A stretch of DNA of 7,142 bases from NCBI GenBank assembly GCA_020348965.1, contig CP070760.1, positions 2,130,363-2,137,504 of the forward strand, read 5' to 3'. The stretch's first letter is position 1; each line of letters opens with the position of its first letter. Position numbers and translations under genes: made by a program. Below are positions 3,266 to 7,031 of the stretch, one piece after another. The stretch is from Candidatus Heimdallarchaeota archaeon. GTDB lineage: Archaea; Asgardarchaeota; Heimdallarchaeia; Hodarchaeales; Hodarchaeaceae. Below the pieces are notes generated by a model. That model worked only from the letters and a program-made list of their open reading frames with translations, did no database searches and had not been told where the DNA came from.

Positions 3266-4279
3266 ATGAAATCACCTAATTCCTTTTTAGGTGGAGAGTA
3301 CCCTATAATGGGAAGTACGTCTGATAATAACAAATTTGATATGGTTATCATTGGTGCTGGACCAGCAGGTATGGCGGCTGCTATTTATGGGTCACGTATG
3401 GGTTGGAAAACAATAGTACTCGATAAAGAAGCAGTTGGAGGGTTAGCAGCTACCACTCCCATTATAGAAAACTATCCCGGTTTTTCAGAAATTACTGGTC
3501 TCGAGTTTGCAGAGAGATTAAGAAAACAGGCGGAAAAATTTGGAGCAGAGATCCGAGAATTGGTAGAAGTGACGGAAGTAAAAGCTGATCAGGTTCCACT
3601 CGAAGTAGTCACGACCACGGGTAATTTCATCGCAAAAGTTGTCATTATTGCGACTGGGACAGCTCATCGTCACTTAAATATTCCAGGAGAAGAAGAATTT
3701 GAAGGAAAGGGAGTTTCTTATTGTGCTACGTGTGATGGTCCATTATACAAGGCTAAAAAAGTTGCAGTTGTAGGAGGTGGAAACTCAGCTGTTACAGAGG
3801 CTCTGTATCTGAATAATGTGGTCCGAGAAGTTCACTTAATTCACCGTCGGGATCGATTACGAGCTGATGAATCACTTCAGAGAGAAATTCTCAACAATTC
3901 AAATGTTAATTTCGTCTGGGACTCAGTTATAGAAGAAATTCAGGGTAGCGAAACAGGGGGAGTCAAAAAAATCTCAATAAAGAATGTGAAAACTGAAGAA
4001 ATCAGTTCTCTTCGTGTAAAAGCGGTTTTTGTTGCCATTGGTATATCTCCTAACAATGAATTGGCCAAAAAACTTGGAGTTGAACTTACCGAAGAAGGGT
4101 TAATCAAGGTTGATAGTAAGCAACGTACCAGTATTCCCCGAATTTATGCCTGTGGTGACATTACTCCTGGTCAAGGACAGATCTCAGTCGCAGTAGGAGA
4201 AGGGACAACTGCTGCAATCTCGGCTTTCCTTGATATGAAAGGTGGGGATTGGTATGGGGAAGAAGTAAGTAATGGTTGA
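3266..4279 (+). CDS. trxB: Thioredoxin-disulfide reductase, low-molecular-weight NADPH-type TrxR.
   Basis: FAD motif DMVIIGAGPAGMAAAIYGSR. Redox-active CATC at nt 3722-3733 (SYCATCDG). NAD(P)H motif VAVVGGGNSAVTEALYL followed by HRRDRLRA. C-terminal GDITPG...AVGEGTTAA. The start is ambiguous. ATG 3266 lies ~25 nt after a TATA-like box, implying a leaderless transcript. ATG 3308 (MGSTSDNNKFDMVIIG) follows AGGTGGAG at 3289-3296 and gives a more typical N-terminal length. Confidence 0.93.
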   Translation: MKSPNSFLGGEYPIMGSTSDNNKFDMVIIGAGPAGMAAAIYGSRMGWKTIVLDKEAVGGLAATTPIIENYPGFSEITGLEFAERLRKQAEKFGAEIRELVEVTEVKADQVPLEVVTTTGNFIAKVVIIATGTAHRHLNIPGEEEFEGKGVSYCATCDGPLYKAKKVAVVGGGNSAVTEALYLNNVVREVHLIHRRDRLRADESLQREILNNSNVNFVWDSVIEEIQGSETGGVKKISIKNVKTEEISSLRVKAVFVAIGISPNNELAKKLGVELTEEGLIKVDSKQRTSIPRIYACGDITPGQGQISVAVGEGTTAAISAFLDMKGGDWYGEEVSNG

Positions 4280-4791
4280 TAGTAATATTGGACCACACAC
4301 TACCATCGCATTCCGTTGCCATAGATAGAGTATCAGCTCATTTCAGTGCTGCTCACGCTTTAAAAACAAGTCAATACGAAGAGGGTCTCCACGGTCACAA
4401 TTATCAAGTTGAAATGGAAATCGGGGGAAAGATGGATACTGAAGATCTTGTCGTTGACTTTGTATTCTTGGAGGATCTCCTGCAACAAATTCTTTCACAA
4501 TGGGATCATTATGTCCTCATGCCAATGAATAATACATATGTGACACTCTCCGAGAATGACGATAATCTCGAAATTCAGTATGGAAACCGTTTTTATTCCA
4601 TTCCAAAGAGGGAGATCAAGCTGCTAAACTGCGTAAATGTTACAACGGAAGCATTGTCTCGCTTATTGGGAGAGAAAATTCGAGCTCAGTTAAAAAAGGA
4701 GAATTTATGGGATAGGATCCAGAGTATTAGAATAACAATTTGGGAAACATCTTGTTACCGCGCTACTTATTCCATTGGCTCCACTTCTTAA
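4276..4791 (+). CDS. COG0720 / 6-pyruvoyl-tetrahydropterin synthase (PTPS/QueD) family protein lacking the catalytic Cys. Candidate PTPS-III/VI-type enzyme forming 6-hydroxymethyl-dihydropterin.
   Basis: Family signature FSAAHAL...EEGLHGHNYQVEMEIGG (Zn-binding His residues), DLVVDF, WDHYVL and TTEALSRLLGEKI. The position of the QueD Cys (Cx3HGH) holds Glu (E35-E36-G-L-HGH). There is no ATG. The ORF starts at TTG 4276 (or TTG 4288) and overlaps the trxB stop as TTGA. Confidence 0.82.
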   Translation: MIVILDHTLPSHSVAIDRVSAHFSAAHALKTSQYEEGLHGHNYQVEMEIGGKMDTEDLVVDFVFLEDLLQQILSQWDHYVLMPMNNTYVTLSENDDNLEIQYGNRFYSIPKREIKLLNCVNVTTEALSRLLGEKIRAQLKKENLWDRIQSIRITIWETSCYRATYSIGSTS

Positions 4792-5575
4792 TAAAACAAG
4801 TCAATTTAACTTTAGGAAATCCAGAAATTGACTGTCCCTGACAAGTTAGATTAAAACGAAGTCCTTTATGTTGGGAATGATAAGATGCTAACAATTTACG
4901 TGCGATCTTGAATTTTTCAAGCTTTTTCCTTTTTGATTTTTTTATGGGTGAATCTAAAGTACTATATCGACCAATGATATACCCAAAATCAAAACCAATT
5001 AGTCCAATCAATGGAGATTGAAAATGAAAGGCCAAAAAAATTGCACGATCCCCATCTGTAAACCCACCAAAATTTAGAAGTACTTGGCCTGGTTCACATT
5101 GTGTGGTTCCCCATACGTAGTTATTGGAAATTATTTCCGAATTTTGAGTAATAAACCGAGAAATCTGCTGTTTATTGTCACCGTGAGCATGAATTAATGT
5201 TAAGGCTCCATTATTGATGGCCCATCTAATCGATTTCCAATCACCATCCAGATCAGTGACAACTATTGATGGGACAATATTTTCATTTCGTAGAAATGTT
5301 GTAGCACCATCAACAGCGATTGAGCGAAGATTGGACATAATCTCAGTAGAAAAAAGTGTTGATACATCTTCCTCCAAAGAGGGGCCAGCTCCTGCAATAA
5401 TCACTGGTTCTTGAAGAATTGCTTTTAATTTTTGGAGTATTTTTTCTTTTTTAATTGGCATTAACTCGATTAAAAACTCCTTCAATAACTGTGCTGATCG
5501 TTTATCTGCTTCTGTGTTAAAACCTAATTGTTGCATGATTTGAAAATACTCATTCTTCCAGTCTTGCCAATTCAT
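4763..5575 (-). CDS. mptE: MptE-like (DUF115 family) 6-hydroxymethyl-7,8-dihydropterin diphosphokinase.
   Basis: 270-codon ORF with ATG at 5575-5573 and TAG at 4765-4763. Motifs recalled from the DUF115/MptE family: VIIAGAGPSL, AVDGAT...VPSIVVTDLDGD, LIHAHGDN, GGFTDGDRAIFLA and GLIGFDFG. The assignment is from memory of family motifs, not a search. Confidence 0.75.
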   Translation of the reverse strand: MNWQDWKNEYFQIMQQLGFNTEADKRSAQLLKEFLIELMPIKKEKILQKLKAILQEPVIIAGAGPSLEEDVSTLFSTEIMSNLRSIAVDGATTFLRNENIVPSIVVTDLDGDWKSIRWAINNGALTLIHAHGDNKQQISRFITQNSEIISNNYVWGTTQCEPGQVLLNFGGFTDGDRAIFLAFHFQSPLIGLIGFDFGYIIGRYSTLDSPIKKSKRKKLEKFKIARKLLASYHSQHKGLRFNLTCQGQSISGFPKVKLTCFIKKWSQWNK

Positions 5576-5701: not shown

Positions 5702-5709
5702 TATTTAAA
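5702..5709 (+). promoter_or_regulatory. Candidate TATA box for the 5S transcription unit.
   Basis: TATTTAAA would place a TSS near 5730, upstream of the leader. Alternatives are TTATTTAAAC at 5638-5647 and ACTAATAA near 5746-5753. Unresolved. Confidence 0.25.
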
Positions 5710-5776
5710 GGCTCTTGAAAGCGCTCATCTTGGTTTTTAGTATTACTAATAACAACAAGACGCCACCAACATGTGA

Positions 5777-5795
5777 GATTCTGCCGGAAGTTAAG
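5777..5795 (+). other. Leader-side strand of a bulge-helix-bulge (BHB)-like processing motif at the 5' boundary of the permuted 5S.
   Basis: GAUUCUG (5777-5783) pairs with CAGGGUC (5911-5917): 7 bp, 2 G.U. CCGG (5784-5787) pairs with CCGG (5904-5907) as a 4-bp central helix. AAG (5788-5790) is unpaired. GUU (5790-5792) can pair with AAC (5901-5903), so the inner helix is weak and this site is relaxed. Confidence 0.55.
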
Positions 5796-5909
5796 TTAGG
5801 CTCCGTTTCGATCTGTACTGTCGTGCGCGAGCCAACGGGAACATCGAAAAGCTGAGTATTGCTCGGCCAAAGGGCCTGAGATACACCCGGTCTCATTCCG
5901 AACCCGGAA
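5790..5909 (+). rRNA. rrf: 5S rRNA gene with circularly permuted gene order. The 3' half (helix II 3' strand, helices V/IV, loop E) lies at 5790-5856, a capping pentaloop at 5857-5861, and the 5' half (helix I 5' strand, loop A, helix II, helix III/loop C) at 5862-5909.
   Basis: G+C-rich island in AT-rich DNA. 5883-5909 reads ACACCCGGUCUCAUUCCGAACCCGGAA, the universal helix III/loop C. 5790-5849 reads GUUAAGUUAGGCUCCGUUUCGAUCUGUACUGUCGUGCGCGAGCCAACGGGAACAUCGAAA, a close match to the remembered archaeal helix V/loop E/helix IV (GUACUG..GUGCGCGAGCC..GGGAA). All helices pair across the permuted order: helix I 5851-5856/5862-5867 (6 bp), helix II 5872-5879/5796-5803 (8 bp, 2 G.U), helix III 5887-5890/5904-5907, helix V 5806-5812/5843-5849 (7 bp). 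Confidence 0.85.
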
Positions 5910-5917
5910 ACAGGGTC
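5901..5917 (+). other. Trailer-side strand of the BHB-like motif at the 3' boundary of the permuted 5S.
   Basis: A 3-nt bulge AAA (5908-5910) lies exactly between the 4-bp CCGG/CCGG helix and the 7-bp outer helix. CCGGAA is directly repeated at 5784-5789 and 5904-5909, spaced 120 nt apart. Confidence 0.55.
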
Positions 5918-5936
5918 CCCTTGTTATTAGGCGTAA

Positions 5937-5952
5937 TTTTTCCTTTTTCTTT
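5937..5952 (+). terminator. Oligo-T archaeal-type termination signal downstream of the 5S locus.
   Basis: TTTTT (5937-5941), CC, TTTTT (5944-5948), C, TTT (5950-5952), on the + strand ~30 nt after the 5S 3' boundary. Confidence 0.5.
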
Positions 5953-6065
5953 GTAAAAGATTTCCCAATAGATTTCATCGTCAAAATCTTTATCATCACA
6001 TAATTATTATCAAAATTAATAATCACTCTTGGAGTATAAATAGAAAGATCTGTAGTTCTCTAATC

Positions 6066-6119: not shown

Positions 6120-7031
6120 ATGGTATTTTCTACAATCGCTCAAAGTTACTTTGATGAATTTCCATTTCGGCGGGCCGATCACCGAAAAACGTCTACAGAC
6201 TTTTATTTCCTGTCGCATGCACACTCTGATCATACTTCAGGTCTTCGGTTAAGTTTATCTGATCCTGATGCAATCATTGTTTGTTCTAAGGAAACATCAG
6301 CAGTCATTAAAGTTCTTTTTGGAATTCCTAAGGAGAAATGCCTGATTATCAGCCCTAATCAATCCCTTGATTTTGATAAATATACTGTTCATGCATTAGA
6401 TGCCAACCACTGCTTGGGCAGTTTAATGTTTGTAATTGAATCAAAAAAAGGCCTAAAGGAAGTTTATACCGGGGATTTCAGGTTGGGCAAGCCGATTCTT
6501 GATGAGCTAAATCTAATTCAGGGAGCAAATCATATGTGGCTTGACTATACGTATGGAACCAACGATATATTCAAATTTCCCTCTCGTGAAGAAATGATTT
6601 CAGAAATGATCTCTTTAATCTTATCAGAAGACAATTATCCTTCGAGAGATATCTGGATTGCTGCTTATCAGGTTGGTAAAGAACTTCTTCTAAAAACAAT
6701 AAGTGAGGCCTTGAAAGTTAAAATTTGGGCTTCAGATGTTAAAGTAAGAATCTATAAAGAAATTGGTGGAGAATGGGATATTTTCACTAATGACACAGAT
6801 TCGGGGGTGTTCGTTGGAAGTCGTAGAATGGTGGAAAGATTACACGGTATTAATAAGGATGGCCAAACGAGAATGATAGATGCTTTACGCATCTCACCAA
6901 CAGGTTGGTCGGCACGATTACGTAAGAAACGTTTGGATGTGCATTTCTTTCCTTACTCTGATCATTGTTCGTATTCAGAGGTTCATGAATTCATCAAAAT
7001 CGTTAAGGCAAAAAATCTCACGAAAATCTAA
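6120..7031 (+). CDS. SNM1/PSO2/Artemis-like (DRMBL-type beta-CASP) metallo-beta-lactamase-fold nuclease, compact 303-aa form.
   Basis: Motif series typical of the SNM1 clade: FDEFPF...DFYFLSHAHSDHTSGL (HxHxDH), DANHCLGSLMF, YTGDFR, WLDYTYG...FPSREEMI, YQVGKELLL and C-terminal FPYSDHCSYSEVHEFI (DRMBL PYSEHSS-like). The strong SD AAGGAGGA at 6107-6114 lies 5 nt before the ATG. The protein ends about where beta-CASP motif C would be expected, so that motif is not visible. Confidence 0.82.
   Translation: MVFSTIAQSYFDEFPFRRADHRKTSTDFYFLSHAHSDHTSGLRLSLSDPDAIIVCSKETSAVIKVLFGIPKEKCLIISPNQSLDFDKYTVHALDANHCLGSLMFVIESKKGLKEVYTGDFRLGKPILDELNLIQGANHMWLDYTYGTNDIFKFPSREEMISEMISLILSEDNYPSRDIWIAAYQVGKELLLKTISEALKVKIWASDVKVRIYKEIGGEWDIFTNDTDSGVFVGSRRMVERLHGINKDGQTRMIDALRISPTGWSARLRKKRLDVHFFPYSDHCSYSEVHEFIKIVKAKNLTKI

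What the first reader, a model, noticed from the sequence alone, without database searches (positions are those of the whole stretch)
5777..5917. BHB-like leader/trailer structure predicted to circularise the permuted 5S into a 120-nt RNA with an exact canonical junction
The leader GAUUCUG-CCGG and the trailer CCGG-AAA-CAGGGUC form a 7-bp helix and a 4-bp helix. A 3-nt AAA bulge sits on the 3' strand, and an AA(G) bulge sits on the 5' strand on the opposite side of the 4-bp helix. This is the topology of the bulge-helix-bulge substrate of the archaeal splicing endonuclease. Cutting after the second bulge nucleotide on each strand (5789|5790 and 5909|5910) and ligating gives ...GAACCCGGAA-GUUAAGUUAGG..., exactly the conserved 5S sequence, in a 120-nt circle. 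The 6-nt direct repeat CCGGAA at both boundaries fits this scheme. The RNA might remain circular, or be reopened at the UAUUG loop to give conventional termini. The 5' site is relaxed (2-3 nt bulge, only ~3 bp of inner helix), so the model is not airtight.
Basis: partly seen in the sequence, partly recalled or inferred. Interest (0 to 1): 0.85.

Follow-up and report, generated by a model that had tools for sequence, protein, structure and literature searches.

The report
Permuted 5S rRNA gene with splice-site stem
An Asgard (Heimdall-group) archaeon encodes its 5S ribosomal RNA with the two halves in swapped order, inside a conserved stem shaped like the cut site of the archaeal tRNA-splicing enzyme. 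Cutting and rejoining there would give a 120-nt circular 5S rRNA, and the layout explains why no 5S gene could be found in these genomes.

Summary
Window 5790-5909 (+) is a complete 5S rRNA in circularly permuted order, with helix I closed by a hairpin and the gene ends inside the invariant ...CCCGGAA|GUUAAG... stretch. Rfam sees only two sub-threshold halves in swapped order. Rotating the sequence restores one colinear match to canonical 5S.

I found 26 further distinct permuted 5S genes, in Heimdall/Hod-type MAGs and, at a different locus, in Frey/Jordarchaeia. All keep this geometry. The outer helix has compensatory changes at 8 of 10 pairs. The 4-bp helix is CGUG/CACG in Frey/Jord, so it is complementary pairing and not a direct repeat. 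Cutting after the second bulge nucleotide always recreates the canonical junction, even where the register is shifted by one.

The best reading is a functional, probably sole, 5S gene. It is matured like the permuted Thermoproteus SRP RNA: endonuclease cuts at a relaxed bulge-helix-bulge, then ligation to a circle. Cleavage, ligation and the final topology are inferred, not shown. I found no paper describing this, and the authors of complete Heimdallarchaeum genomes reported they could not find a 5S gene. I rate it a new variant of a known kind, of high interest.

The parts
5702..5709 (+). TATA-like box (TATTTAAA) of the predicted archaeal promoter of the 5S unit
   Evidence: An A/T box (ATATTTAAAG / TATATAAAG) sits at the same distance upstream in all Heimdall/Hod-type loci. 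Its role as a promoter is inferred.
5732..5789 (+). Predicted 5' leader. The start is inferred, about 26 nt downstream of the TATA box at a conserved GG.
   Evidence: Upstream alignments. The transcription start has not been mapped.
5733..5753 (+). Hairpin at the 5' end of the leader (GUU.UUAGU-AUU-ACUAA.AAC)
   Evidence: Present in the MFE fold. The equivalent hairpins in relatives differ in sequence: UUAGUG/CACUAA, UUGGUG/CACCAA, GUUUG/CAAAC, GGUG/CACC.
5760..5764 (+). Distal helix of the processing stem, 5' strand (ACGCC)
   Evidence: Pairs with GGCGU at 5930-5934 in the leader+trailer co-fold. Most other lineages have a distal helix with a different sequence (GCGCC/GGCGC, UUGCG/CGCAA, GAGACGCGUG/CACGCGUCUC); L001 does not form one.
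5768..5771 (+). Middle helix of the processing stem, 5' strand (AACA)
   Evidence: Pairs with UGUU at 5922-5925.
5777..5783 (+). Outer helix of the BHB-like motif, 5' strand (GAUUCUG)
   Evidence: 7 bp with 5911-5917. Compensatory changes at 8 of 10 aligned pairs across 20 distinct sequences. RNAalifold predicts it independently.
5784..5787 (+). Central 4-bp helix H, 5' strand (CCGG)
   Evidence: Pairs with 5904-5907. It is 4 bp in 15 of 27 sequences and 3 bp plus an A.C mismatch in 12 of 27. It is CGUG/CACG in Frey/Jord-type genes and CUGG/CCGG in L015.
5788..5790 (+). 5' bulge AA|G, with the predicted cut at 5789|5790
   Evidence: Read from the sequence. G5790 can alternatively pair with C5903. 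Relaxed in all relatives.
5790..5909 (+). Circularly permuted 5S rRNA gene, 120 nt
   Evidence: Rfam half-matches. Colinear with canonical 5S only after rotation. 92% of cells paired on the 5S structure, with 13 covarying pairs. 26 further distinct homologues.
5790..5850 (+). Segment matching the 3' part of a canonical 5S: 3' strands of helices III and II, then helices V and IV with loops E and D
   Evidence: Aligns to the 3' part of the Rfam model, from about position 48. Helix V has compensatory changes at 5 of 6 pairs.
5851..5867 (+). Helix I closed into a hairpin (GCUGAG-UAUUG-CUCGGC) in place of the normal 5' and 3' termini
   Evidence: Covarying pairs AU/GC and GC/AU/CG. The loop is 3-6 nt and variable.
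5868..5909 (+). Segment matching the 5' part of a canonical 5S: loop A, helix II 5' strand, helix III and loop C, ending in the conserved AA bulge
   Evidence: Rfam model 27-51 matches 5885-5909. The canonical HMM, positions 11-54, matches 5866-5909.
5904..5907 (+). Central helix H, 3' strand (CCGG). The same bases form the 3' strand of helix III in the mature fold.
5908..5910 (+). 3' bulge AA|A, with the predicted cut at 5909|5910
   Evidence: A 3-nt bulge is present in all 27 sequences: AAA, GAA, or GAU in L146.
5911..5917 (+). Outer helix, 3' strand (CAGGGUC)
5922..5925 (+). Middle helix of the processing stem, 3' strand (UGUU)
5930..5934 (+). Distal helix of the processing stem, 3' strand (GGCGU)
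5937..5948 (+). Two T5 runs, the predicted archaeal oligo-T terminator
   Evidence: T-rich runs (often TTTTTTCTAT) lie 30-45 nt past the 5S end in relatives. Their role as a terminator is inferred.

Best explanation
Window 5790-5909 is the functional, probably only, 5S rRNA gene of a Heimdall-group Asgard archaeon, and it is encoded in circularly permuted order. It is its own transcription unit, running from a TATA box at about 5702 to T-runs at about 5937-5948.

In the primary transcript, a leader of about 58 nt and the trailer pair into a long processing stem. The base of that stem is a relaxed bulge-helix-bulge. It consists of the outer helix (5777-5783 with 5911-5917), the 4-bp helix (5784-5787 with 5904-5907), a canonical 3-nt bulge on the 3' strand and a looser AA(G) bulge on the 5' strand.

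The archaeal splicing endonuclease (EndA) is proposed to cut after the second bulge nucleotide on each strand, at 5789|5790 and 5909|5910. The tRNA ligase RtcB then joins A5909 to G5790. This restores the invariant ...CCCGGAA-GUUAAG... connection between helix III and helix II. After release of the leader, CCGG 5904-5907 re-pairs with 5887-5890 to form helix III. The product is a 120-nt covalently closed 5S rRNA whose helix I stays capped by its hairpin loop.

Shown here: the permutation, structural selection on the 5S helices, and conservation and covariation of the stem. Also shown: complementarity of the 4-bp helix and exact reconstitution of the junction by the cut rule.

Inferred: the transcript ends, cleavage by EndA, ligation, circularity of the mature RNA, and absence of a second, canonical gene.
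For: - Permutation: Rfam matches in two halves. A canonical-5S HMM is colinear only after rotation, 40.1 bits against 24.5 + 5.3 bits in swapped order.
- Functional gene, not a relic: helices II, V and the closed helix I covary. 92% of cells pair, 13 pairs have double changes, and 0 of 500 shuffles reach this. Position and flanking genes (HerA-TrxR-QueD-MptE-5S-MBL) are conserved in the Heimdall/Hod-type loci, whose flanking proteins are only 41-85% identical. A truncated extra copy in L015 is decaying.
- Stem: the outer helix has double changes at 8 of 10 pairs, covariation 0.53 against 0.19 shuffled and at most 0.14 slid. Every lineage forms the 4-bp helix, the 3-nt bulge and an outer helix, and all but L001 add a distal helix.
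- The 4-bp helix is pairing, not repetition: Frey/Jord leaders have CGUG opposite CACG, which can pair only with the 3' strand.
- Cut rule: in all 27 sequences, cutting after the second bulge nucleotide gives ...CGGAAGU(U/C)AA. In Frey/Jord the register is shifted by one on both strands. In L146 the genome encodes only ...CACGGA followed by U, so the second conserved A has to come from the leader side.
- A relative (L142) carries a 30-nt insertion in helix III/loop C. The same cut rule removes it exactly, which suggests the splicing machinery acts on 5S precursors in this clade.
- No canonical copy seen: Rfam at gathering score finds no 5S in 18 loci. The canonical HMM finds only half-matches in 219 kb of Asgard loci. 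A search for the canonical-order junction found 0 hits in the metagenome collection. The authors of complete Heimdallarchaeum genomes state that 5S genes 'could not be predicted' (PMC8813620).
- Precedents: the permuted Thermoproteus SRP RNA is cut at a leader/trailer BHB and is circular (PMC4731332). A 5S with helix I closed by a tetraloop works in E. coli ribosomes (PMC7283268).
Against: - There is no RNA-level evidence of any kind.
- The 5' half of the motif is not canonical. The inner helix is at most 3 bp of invariant 5S sequence, so it cannot covary. The bulge is 2-3 nt. In 12 of 27 sequences the 4-bp helix has an A.C mismatch next to it.
- Thermodynamic prediction does not choose the BHB conformer. 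The window precursor MFE is -65.9 kcal/mol and the BHB conformer is -62.4. RNAalifold pairs the leader CCG with the 5' strand of helix III.
- The 4-bp helix competes with helix III of the 5S itself.
- A nick between the AA bulge and G5790 might be tolerated, so ligation is not logically required.
- Whole genomes could not be scanned, so sole-copy status rests on one paper's statement about related genomes. A Jordarchaeum MAG has been reported to carry 'a 5S rRNA gene', method not stated (PMC9723677).
- Reviews and recent papers state that archaeal 5S is not circularised (PMC12918454). That shows novelty, but also that there is no precedent.
Confidence: 0.6

Rival explanations
1. Linear permuted 5S. 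The stem directs excision by EndA or another nuclease at or near 5789|5790 and 5909|5910, but the ends are not joined. The ribosome carries a 120-nt linear 5S. Its termini lie between the AA bulge and the 2-bp G-U/A-C helix, and helix III forms a 3'-terminal hairpin.
For: The fold of the linear 120-mer already contains helices I-V. Linear permuted 5S rRNAs exist in brown-algal mitochondria (PMC4267664). Nothing in the DNA demands ligation.
Against: EndA products (a 2',3'-cyclic phosphate and a 5'-OH held together by a helix) are the standard RtcB substrate. They are ligated in every known leader/trailer BHB case: 16S, 23S, SRP RNA and permuted tRNA. The break point differs by one nucleotide between the Heimdall type and the Frey/Jord type, while the summed sequence is exactly canonical. 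That is expected if the nick is sealed and unexpected if the termini matter. The 2-bp G5790-U5791 helix would be very weak at a free end.
Confidence: 0.2
2. Circular intermediate, then reopening. The circle forms as above and is later cut in the helix I loop (UAUUG, 5857-5861). This gives a conventional linear 5S with termini at helix I, as in permuted tRNAs and circular pre-16S.
For: Permuted tRNAs and circular pre-16S/23S are re-linearised. The window's loop is A/U-rich, and A/U-rich motifs are 5S processing sites in methanogens (PMC10515664).
Against: The loop is 3-6 nt with no conserved sequence: UAUUG, GUU, UUUUA, AAUUA, UACUUG. In Frey/Jord-type genes and L002 it is a c(UUCG)g or c(CUCG)g cap, which is a structural tetraloop and not a nuclease site. 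Helix I would be only 6-8 bp with no spacer to trim.
Confidence: 0.08
3. The stem is not an EndA substrate. The conserved leader/trailer helix serves another purpose, such as a folding chaperone for the permuted RNA, a binding site, or a substrate of a different nuclease. The BHB-like look comes from 5S's own CCGG-AA sequence.
For: The 5' site is non-canonical, and half of the sequences have a mismatch in the 4-bp helix. Energy models prefer alternative pairings of the leader CCGG. A conserved beta-CASP-like MBL nuclease gene sits next to the 5S in all Heimdall/Hod-type loci.
Against: The 3-nt bulge on the 3' strand, flanked by a 4-bp helix and a covarying helix, is invariant in 27 sequences. 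It was rebuilt with different sequence and register in Frey/Jord. The BHB cut rule predicts the exact junction, which a chaperone role would not require. The MBL gene is not linked to the 5S in Frey/Jord loci, and the 5S is inverted relative to it in L142 and L150.
Confidence: 0.08
4. Non-functional rearranged relic or assembly artefact, with the real 5S gene elsewhere.
For: Whole genomes could not be scanned here. One Jordarchaeum MAG is reported to have a 5S gene.
Against: The same arrangement occurs in more than 25 independent assemblies. These include complete chromosomes (CP147778, CP070665, CP070695) and the 3.16-Mb contig the window appears to come from. The 5S helices show compensatory substitutions, and the promoter and terminator context is conserved. 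The one truly truncated copy (L015) shows what decay looks like. No 5S gene could be found in complete Heimdallarchaeum genomes.
Confidence: 0.03

Closest known systems
Circularly permuted SRP RNA gene of Thermoproteus tenax / T. uzoniensis (Plagens et al. 2015, PMC4731332)
   Same: It is an essential, universal structured RNA encoded in permuted order. Standard searches could not find the gene. A short leader and the trailer fold into a relaxed BHB that the tRNA splicing endonuclease cuts, and the ends are joined in a functionally important conserved region. The mature RNA is circular.
   Different: The RNA is different (5S rRNA, a ribosome component) and so is the phylum (Asgard, not Thermoproteota). 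The distribution here is much wider: two classes and dozens of genomes, with conserved synteny. The stem extends into a long rRNA-like processing stem. No experimental evidence exists yet.
BHB-containing processing stems of archaeal 16S and 23S rRNA, with circular pre-rRNAs and, in some lineages, circular 23S in ribosomes (PMC10515664; PMC12918454)
   Same: Long leader-trailer helices carry a BHB at their base. EndA cleavage and ligation give a circle.
   Different: Those genes are colinear with the mature RNA. The circle is an intermediate, or it merely closes helix 1. For 5S, the literature describes other pathways (A/U-rich motif cleavage, exonucleases) and states that 5S is not circularised. 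Here ligation would be needed to restore an internal, conserved connection.
Circularly permuted tRNA genes (Cyanidioschyzon merolae; Thermofilum pendens; PMC3218864, PMC3978253)
   Same: The 3' half is encoded upstream of the 5' half. A BHB formed by leader and trailer is processed by the splicing machinery into a circular intermediate.
   Different: The tRNA circles are reopened by RNase P and tRNase Z at the acceptor stem, where a spacer separates the ends. Here helix I is capped by a 3-6-nt loop with no spacer or recognisable processing signal.
Permuted mitochondrial 5S rRNA of brown algae and other stramenopiles (mtPerm-5S; Valach et al. 2014, PMC4267664)
   Same: Helix I is replaced by a closed hairpin, so the 5S termini lie elsewhere.
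   Different: It is organellar. The ends lie at the three-way junction between the alpha and gamma domains. The final RNA is linear and permuted, and no ligation or BHB is involved. Here the break is between helix III and helix II, and a splice-type stem flanks the gene.
Post-transcriptionally permuted 23S rRNA of Pyrococcus furiosus / Thermococcus barophilus (PMC7758197; bioRxiv 10.64898/2026.03.23.713588)
   Same: An archaeal rRNA whose mature connectivity differs from the linear gene order because of BHB circularisation.
   Different: In that case the gene is canonical and the RNA becomes permuted: it is circularised and then helix 98 is excised. Here the gene is permuted and processing would restore canonical connectivity.
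Engineered circularly permuted 5S rRNA in E. coli (Huang et al. 2020, PMC7283268)
   Same: The native 5S ends are joined by a tetraloop and new ends are opened elsewhere, and the ribosomes still work.
   Different: It is artificial. The new ends were placed in loops C or D and tethered to 23S. No natural counterpart was known.

Membership tests
5S rRNA (Rfam RF00001) | Match to the covariance model at or above the gathering score (38 bits) | tested here: not met
   Genomic order gives only 20.8 and 18.9 bits in the window, and no hit at gathering in 18 related loci. This is expected for a permuted gene. A rotated sequence could not be submitted to cmscan.
5S rRNA (Rfam RF00001) | Colinear sequence similarity to canonical 5S over the whole molecule | tested here: met
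   After rotation there is one hit at HMM positions 12-103, 40.1 bits, E = 9e-14 against an HMM of 98 canonical 5S. The conserved CCGAACCCGGAAGUUAAG is restored across the junction.
5S rRNA (Rfam RF00001) | Three-way junction with helices I-V supported by covariation | tested here: met
   92.2% of cells are paired. 13 pairs have double changes (helices II, V, I, and one in III). 0 of 500 shuffles reach this, and slid controls fall to 54-56% or less.
5S rRNA (Rfam RF00001) | Free 5' and 3' termini forming helix I | tested here: not met
   Helix I is a closed hairpin (5851-5867) in all 27 sequences.
Bulge-helix-bulge substrate of the archaeal splicing endonuclease | Central helix of exactly 4 bp between the two cut sites | tested here: inconclusive
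   It is 4 standard pairs in 15 of 27 sequences, including the window and all Frey/Jord genes, and 3 pairs plus A.C in 12 of 27. There are compensatory differences between classes (CCGG/CCGG against CGUG/CACG).
Bulge-helix-bulge substrate of the archaeal splicing endonuclease | A 3-nt bulge on the 3' strand, flanked by the 4-bp helix and an outer helix | tested here: met
   Present in 27 of 27 sequences (AAA, GAA, GAU). The outer helix is 5-10 contiguous bp and covaries.
Bulge-helix-bulge substrate of the archaeal splicing endonuclease | A 3-nt bulge on the 5' strand, flanked by the 4-bp helix and an inner helix | tested here: inconclusive
   AA plus a G that may pair with C5903. The inner helix is at most 3 bp (GUU/AAC) of invariant 5S sequence, so no covariation is possible. 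It is weaker still in Frey/Jord. It qualifies only as a relaxed (bulge-helix-loop-like) site.
Bulge-helix-bulge substrate of the archaeal splicing endonuclease | Cleavage by EndA at both bulges | not testable with these tools
   This needs recombinant enzyme or RNA end mapping.
Permuted ncRNA gene matured through a circle (permuted tRNA, Thermoproteus SRP RNA) | The 3' part of the RNA is encoded upstream of the 5' part in one transcription unit | tested here: met
   A single promoter-like box and a terminator-like T-run flank the unit.
Permuted ncRNA gene matured through a circle (permuted tRNA, Thermoproteus SRP RNA) | The predicted cut-and-join product has the canonical sequence with no missing or extra nucleotide | tested here: met
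   True in 27 of 27 sequences and in two registers.
Permuted ncRNA gene matured through a circle (permuted tRNA, Thermoproteus SRP RNA) | Junction-spanning RNA molecules exist | not testable with these tools
   No RNA data were available. Indirect tries found nothing and are uninformative.
mtPerm-5S (stramenopile mitochondrial permuted 5S) | Termini at the alpha/gamma domain junction, a linear mature RNA, an organellar gene | tested here: not met
   The break here is between helix III and helix II in the beta domain. The flanking genes are archaeal chromosomal genes. See PMC4267664.

The most novel reading that the evidence does not exclude
The ribosomes of Heimdallarchaeia (including Hodarchaeales) and of Frey/Jordarchaeia may contain a covalently circular 5S rRNA. 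It would be made from a permuted gene by the tRNA-splicing machinery. The permuted gene would be the only 5S gene in these genomes, and in some lineages it would also carry a splice-type intron. The permutation would then be a rare, essentially irreversible genomic character shared by the archaeal groups closest to eukaryotes. Eukaryotes have an ordinary colinear 5S gene. The character could therefore be used to test whether eukaryotes branch inside or outside Heimdallarchaeia.
Probability: 0.45. Interest if true: 0.9.

Novelty: new variant of a known kind. Interest (0 to 1): 0.82.

Why it matters
- It would solve a standing annotation gap. Complete Heimdallarchaeum genomes were published with the remark that no 5S rRNA gene could be predicted (PMC8813620). 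Rfam-based pipelines miss every one of these genes, which also affects 'high-quality MAG' calls that require a 5S.
- As far as the searched literature shows, it would be the first permuted 5S rRNA gene outside organelles. It would also be the first 5S whose maturation depends on the tRNA splicing endonuclease and ligase. That would overturn the textbook statement that archaeal 5S, unlike 16S and 23S, is not circularised.
- If the mature RNA is circular, it adds a third rRNA to the newly recognised circular rRNAs in archaeal ribosomes.
- The permutation is a discrete character present in every Heimdall/Hod-type genome sampled here and in Frey/Jordarchaeia. Mapping it across Asgard lineages gives an independent marker for the disputed placement of eukaryotes relative to Heimdallarchaeia.
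- It makes the question directly testable with one RT-PCR on existing enrichment cultures.

Tried and rejected
- **Metagenome scan, canonical junction.** I searched metagenome contigs for the canonical-order junction with lineage-specific flanks (GGTCTCNTTCCGAACCCGGAAGTTAAGTNAGGNTCCG). There were 0 hits. So this collection holds no canonical-order gene and no assembled circle with this sequence, but the result is weak evidence.
- **Metagenome scan, broader pattern.** A broader permuted-gene pattern was badly designed. Its 3' part matches ordinary 5S genes, and a chance GTTAAG upstream was enough to score.
- **Junction-peptide trick.** The reverse strand of the circle has a frame without stops. 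I searched the protein collection with a 40-aa junction-spanning peptide to catch ORFs called on transcript-derived contigs. There were no candidates, which is uninformative.
- **Exact look-ups of window proteins.** The look-ups for the window's MptE-like protein (4763-5575, -) and for P0001, which is 100% identical to the window's MBL protein, failed. The window's source is known only from that protein's NCBI name (JSV04_10835, Candidatus Heimdallarchaeota MAG, 3.16-Mb contig).
- **Taxonomy of L002.** It could not be obtained.
- **Direct repeat as duplication scar.** I considered that CCGGAA is only a relic of a tandem duplication. I rejected this as the sole explanation, because Frey/Jord leaders carry CGUG (complementary to CACG, not identical to it) and L002 and L015 break the repeat (AG, CUGG).
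- **RNAalifold alternative.** In this fold the leader CCG pairs with the 5' strand of helix III. I rejected it as the conserved structure because the Frey/Jord leader cannot form it. It remains a possible competing conformer.
- **Two copies in one MAG.** I first thought L005 and L019 were two copies. They are the two ends of one locus split by the assembler.
- **False positives.** L009, L011 and L016 are chance hits of the pattern.
- **Functional link to the MBL neighbour.** I considered a link to the adjacent beta-CASP-like MBL gene. It is not supported, because the gene is unlinked in Frey/Jord and the 5S is inverted relative to it in two lineages.
Full report
**1. The observation**

- GAUUCUG (5777-5783) pairs with CAGGGUC (5911-5917): 7 bp, including two G-U pairs.
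- CCGG (5784-5787) pairs with CCGG (5904-5907).
- AAA (5908-5910) is a 3-nt bulge on the 3' strand.
- AA plus G (5788-5790) is unpaired on the 5' strand, on the far side of the 4-bp helix.
- Read 5' to 3', each strand runs helix, 4-nt helix strand, bulge, helix.

This is the arrangement of a bulge-helix-bulge (BHB). The rule that the splicing endonuclease cuts after the second bulge nucleotide is taken from my own knowledge of the Thompson & Daniels and Li laboratory work. Plagens et al. define a BHB as a central 4-bp helix flanked by at least one 3-nt bulge (PMC4731332). Cutting at 5789|5790 and 5909|5910 and joining the ends gives a 120-nt molecule that reads ...GAACCCGGAA-GUUAAGUUAGG....

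**2. The interior is a circularly permuted 5S rRNA**

- Rfam reports nothing at gathering score. With permissive thresholds, the 5S model matches in two pieces in swapped order. Model positions 27-51 match 5885-5909 (20.8 bits). In a second, nominally full-length hit at 5744-5859 (18.9 bits), only the model's 3' part, from about position 48, aligns to 5S sequence, from about 5788.
- I built a sequence HMM from 98 canonical 5S genes that a scan had fetched. The rotated window sequence gives one colinear hit (positions 12-103, 40.1 bits). The genomic order gives two hits in reversed order (24.5 and 5.3 bits).
- The fold has helices II, III, IV and V. Helix I is closed into a hairpin, GCUGAG-UAUUG-CUCGGC, at 5851-5867.
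- The gene's ends fall between the conserved AA bulge that follows helix III and the G-U that starts the strand returning to helix II.

**3. Origin and context of the window**

- The flanking ORFs are a HerA-like ATPase, thioredoxin reductase, QueD/PTPS, an MptE-like kinase (an archaeal marker) and an MBL/DRMBL hydrolase.
- The MBL protein is 100% identical to JSV04_10835 of a Candidatus Heimdallarchaeota MAG, on a 3.16-Mb contig.
- The 5S lies alone between the divergently oriented MptE and MBL genes.
- A conserved TATA-like box sits at 5702-5709 and two T5 runs at 5937-5948. These suggest an independent transcript of roughly 5732-5941. This is inferred from the alignments and has not been mapped.

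**4. Relatives**

- One pattern scan of 185,579 species genomes asked for GTTAAG, then GTACTG, then CCGAACNCGGAA about 100 nt downstream. That order is impossible in a normal 5S gene. It returned 21 loci, 18 of them true permuted 5S genes.
- The 18 are labelled Hodarchaeota, Heimdallarchaeota, 'Hermodarchaeota', Promethearchaeota, Freyarchaeota and one unclassified archaeon. They include three complete chromosomes.
- Neighbour-gene look-ups added more: L142, L147, L148 and L150 of the Heimdall/Hod type, and L143-L146 of the Frey/Jord type.
- Counting the window, this makes 27 distinct precursor sequences.
- In the Heimdall/Hod type, the block HerA-TrxR-QueD-MptE-5S-MBL is conserved while the proteins have diverged to 41-85% identity.
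- In the Frey/Jord type, the gene sits elsewhere, between rpoB and a SPOUT methyltransferase/L23 cluster.
- None of the 18 loci tested has a 5S hit at Rfam's gathering score. In 219 kb of Asgard loci, a canonical-5S HMM finds only the half-matches inside the permuted genes.

**5. The gene is under selection as a 5S**

On a 19-sequence alignment, the permuted 5S structure is paired in 92% of cells. Thirteen pairs have changes on both sides, in helices II, V, the closed helix I, and one in helix III. No shuffle of 500 reaches these values, and sliding the partners drops pairing to 54-56% or less. By contrast, a truncated second copy upstream of the intact gene in L015 has lost the conserved GUACUG and breaks off after about 56 nt.

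**6. The leader/trailer stem is conserved and covaries**

- *Outer helix.* It reads GAUUCUG/CAGGGUC in the window. Elsewhere it is GAUAUUG/CAAUAUC, GGCUCUG/CAGAGUC, AAUCUCUG/CAGAGAUU, GAUCCUG/CAGGAUC, GAACCUG/CAGGUUC, GGGUG/CACCC and GACGUCGCCG/CGGCGACGUC. On 20 distinct sequences aligned in register, 8 of 10 pairs have double changes. The covariation score is 0.53, against 0.19 for shuffles (0 of 500 reach it) and at most 0.14 for slid partners. RNAalifold finds this helix without being told.
- *Whole stem.* Co-folding leader and trailer gives the 4-bp helix, the 3-nt bulge and an outer helix of at least 5 bp in every lineage. In all but L001 an internal loop and a distal helix of 4-10 bp with unrelated sequence follow. 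The result is a long processing stem like those of archaeal 16S and 23S.
- *Frey/Jord leader.* The TATA box lies only about 44 nt upstream, so the leader there would be about 18 nt, as compact as the 23-nt leader of the Thermoproteus SRP RNA.

**7. The 4-bp helix and the cut rule**

- CCGG is a palindrome, so in the window CCGGAA could be either a direct repeat or a pairing partner. The Frey/Jord genes decide between these. There the 5S ends ...AACACGGA(A) and the leader has CGUG. CGUG is complementary to CACG, is not a repeat of it, and cannot pair with the 5' strand of helix III. L015 has CUGG (a G-U pair), and L002 has AG rather than AA in the bulge.
- In Frey/Jord, the whole motif is shifted by one nucleotide on both strands. 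The 3' bulge is GAA and the 5' bulge is AAA.
- Cutting after the second bulge nucleotide then gives ...CACGGA + AGUUAAG. This is again exactly the canonical ...CGGAAGUUAAG.
- In L146, the third bulge nucleotide is U. The genome therefore encodes only one of the two conserved A's at the 3' end, and the other must come from the leader side.
- In all 27 sequences, the rule yields the canonical junction with no nucleotide missing or duplicated.

**8. A further hint that the splicing machinery works on these precursors**

L142 is labelled Thorarchaeota but has the Heimdall/Hod-type synteny. Its permuted 5S has a 30-nt insertion in helix III/loop C...CAUUCCGAA|AGAUAUGAAGGAAUUUCUUCAUUCCGGGAA|CCCGGAA. 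It can form a 4-bp helix (UCCG/CGGG), with an AAA bulge followed by a stable intron hairpin on one side and AAC on the other. Cutting after the second nucleotide of each restores CAUUCCGAACCCGGAA exactly. This is a single example. The boundaries are ambiguous within a GAA repeat, so I treat it as a candidate intron only.

**9. Weak points**

- The 5' half of the motif is relaxed everywhere. The inner helix is at most G-C, U-A, U-A, made of invariant 5S nucleotides, so it cannot be tested by covariation. In 12 of 27 sequences (leaders ending CCGAAA), the 4-bp helix has an A.C mismatch next to the 5' bulge.
- Energy minimisation of the window precursor does not choose the BHB conformer: -65.9 kcal/mol for the MFE against -62.4 when the BHB is enforced. 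The 4-bp helix competes with helix III.
- No RNA data could be reached. A junction search in metagenome contigs found nothing, and so did a junction-peptide search in the protein collection.
- I could not scan whole genomes for a second, canonical 5S gene.

**10. Mechanism**

The best-supported model has five steps:
1. The unit is transcribed on its own.
2. The leader and trailer zip into the processing stem.
3. The splicing endonuclease, anchored on the canonical 3' bulge, cuts both strands 4 bp apart.
4. RtcB joins A5909 to G5790.
5. The released 3' CCGG re-pairs with 5887-5890 to form helix III.

The product would be a 120-nt circle with helix I capped. I favour a circle that stays closed, for two reasons. 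The cap is short (3-6 nt) and variable. In Frey/Jord-type genes and L002 it is a c(UUCG)g or c(CUCG)g tetraloop. An engineered E. coli 5S with a tetraloop-closed helix I also functions (PMC7283268).

A linear, unligated product is the main rival. It would fold, but it does not explain why two lineages place the nick one nucleotide apart while keeping the summed sequence exact.

**11. Comparison with what is known**

- The closest analogue is the permuted SRP RNA of Thermoproteus. In that case the gene was undetectable, the leader/trailer BHB is relaxed, EndA cleavage was shown in vitro, and the mature RNA is circular.
- Permuted tRNA genes and the BHB stems of 16S and 23S use the same machinery.
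- The permuted mitochondrial 5S of brown algae is a different thing. It is linear, its ends lie at the three-way junction, and no splicing is involved.
- Known archaeal 5S maturation uses A/U-rich-motif endonucleolytic cuts and trimming. Recent papers say explicitly that 5S, unlike 16S and 23S, is not circularised.
- Six full-text searches found no description of a permuted or circular 5S in archaea.
[quoted passage not shown] That is what a permuted sole copy would cause.
- A caveat: a Jordarchaeum MAG was described as having a 5S gene, with the method not stated.

**12. Verdict**

It is a new variant of a known kind: a permuted non-coding RNA gene with a splice-type stem. It appears in a molecule (5S rRNA) and a lineage (the Asgard groups nearest eukaryotes) where it was not known. 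It is widespread and ancient enough to serve as a phylogenetic character.

My confidence levels:
- about 0.95 that this is a functional permuted 5S gene
- about 0.8 that the stem is a processing signal of the BHB type
- about 0.6 for the full cut-and-ligate-to-circle model

Interest: 0.82.

Noticed in passing
L142 5572-5720 (- strand): This is a permuted 5S of 149 nt with a 30-nt insertion in helix III/loop C. The insertion is flanked by a 4-bp helix (UCCG/CGGG) and by AAA and AAC bulges. Removing it by the BHB cut rule restores the canonical CAUUCCGAACCCGGAA. It is a candidate splice-type intron inside a 5S rRNA gene, seen in only one genome.
   Followed up: partly
L015 3150-3275 (+), upstream of the intact gene at 3570-3691: This is a truncated, decaying second copy of the permuted 5S locus. 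It has its own group-A-type leader and the first ~56 nt of the 5S, with GUACUG mutated to GUAUUG. It looks like a relic of gene duplication or replacement, and it shows what an unselected copy looks like.
   Followed up: partly
L142 and L150/L151, compared with window 5790-5909: The 5S unit is inverted in place between the MptE-like and MBL genes in two lineages. The flanking genes keep their order and orientation, so the 5S behaves as an independent, invertible cassette.
   Followed up: no
window 6120-7031 (+) and its orthologues in all Heimdall/Hod-type loci; L002 1186-2136 (-): A 303-aa MBL-fold/DRMBL (beta-CASP-like) protein is the constant downstream neighbour of the permuted 5S. JGI names some orthologues 'Cft2 family RNA processing exonuclease'. 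A 36%-identical homologue lies 2.5 kb from the 5S in L002. It is not linked to the 5S in Frey/Jord loci. Whether it has any role in 5S processing is unknown.
   Followed up: partly
window 5705-5896 (-) and 5796-6026 (-); L143 4279-4443, L144 4234-4398, L145 353-517: Mechanical ORFs, and 54-aa genes called in public annotation, lie over the permuted 5S. They are almost certainly spurious protein calls on an RNA gene. One reverse-strand frame of the 120-nt circle has no stop codon.
   Followed up: partly
window 5733-5753 (+): The predicted leader begins with a hairpin whose stem differs in sequence between lineages but is maintained: UUAGUG/CACUAA, UUGGUG/CACCAA, GUUUG/CAAAC, GGUG/CACC. Its loop often contains AAUCUCA. 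Its function is unknown.
   Followed up: partly
window 5773-5777 and the equivalent leader positions in relatives (alignment A1, columns 8-13): The leader motif UG(C/U)GAG, just outside the 7-bp helix, is nearly invariant in Heimdall/Hod-type genes (G9, G11 and A12 at 90% or more). It does not covary like the helix next to it. In the window's MFE fold it pairs with loop C (CUCAU). Its role is unexplained.
   Followed up: no
L005 (start of contig) and L019 (end of contig), same MAG YT1_021; also L003: Contigs end exactly at or inside the permuted 5S. L019 carries TrxR-QueD-MptE-5S and L005 carries 5S-MBL, so one locus was split by the assembler. These are not two gene copies.
   Followed up: yes
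L143 (record labelled Lokiarchaeia), L013 (labelled Hermodarchaeota), L142 (labelled Thorarchaeota): The public taxonomic labels disagree with the type of permuted 5S and with the synteny. L143 is Frey/Jord-type, while L013 and L142 are Heimdall/Hod-type. The MAG labels are probably wrong or outdated, so the true phylogenetic spread of the permuted gene needs a proper tree.
   Followed up: no
window 4276-4279 and 4763-4791: TrxR and QueD overlap by 4 nt (ATGA-type coupling). The QueD and MptE-like ORFs converge and overlap by 29 nt. This is ordinary compact archaeal gene packing.
   Followed up: no
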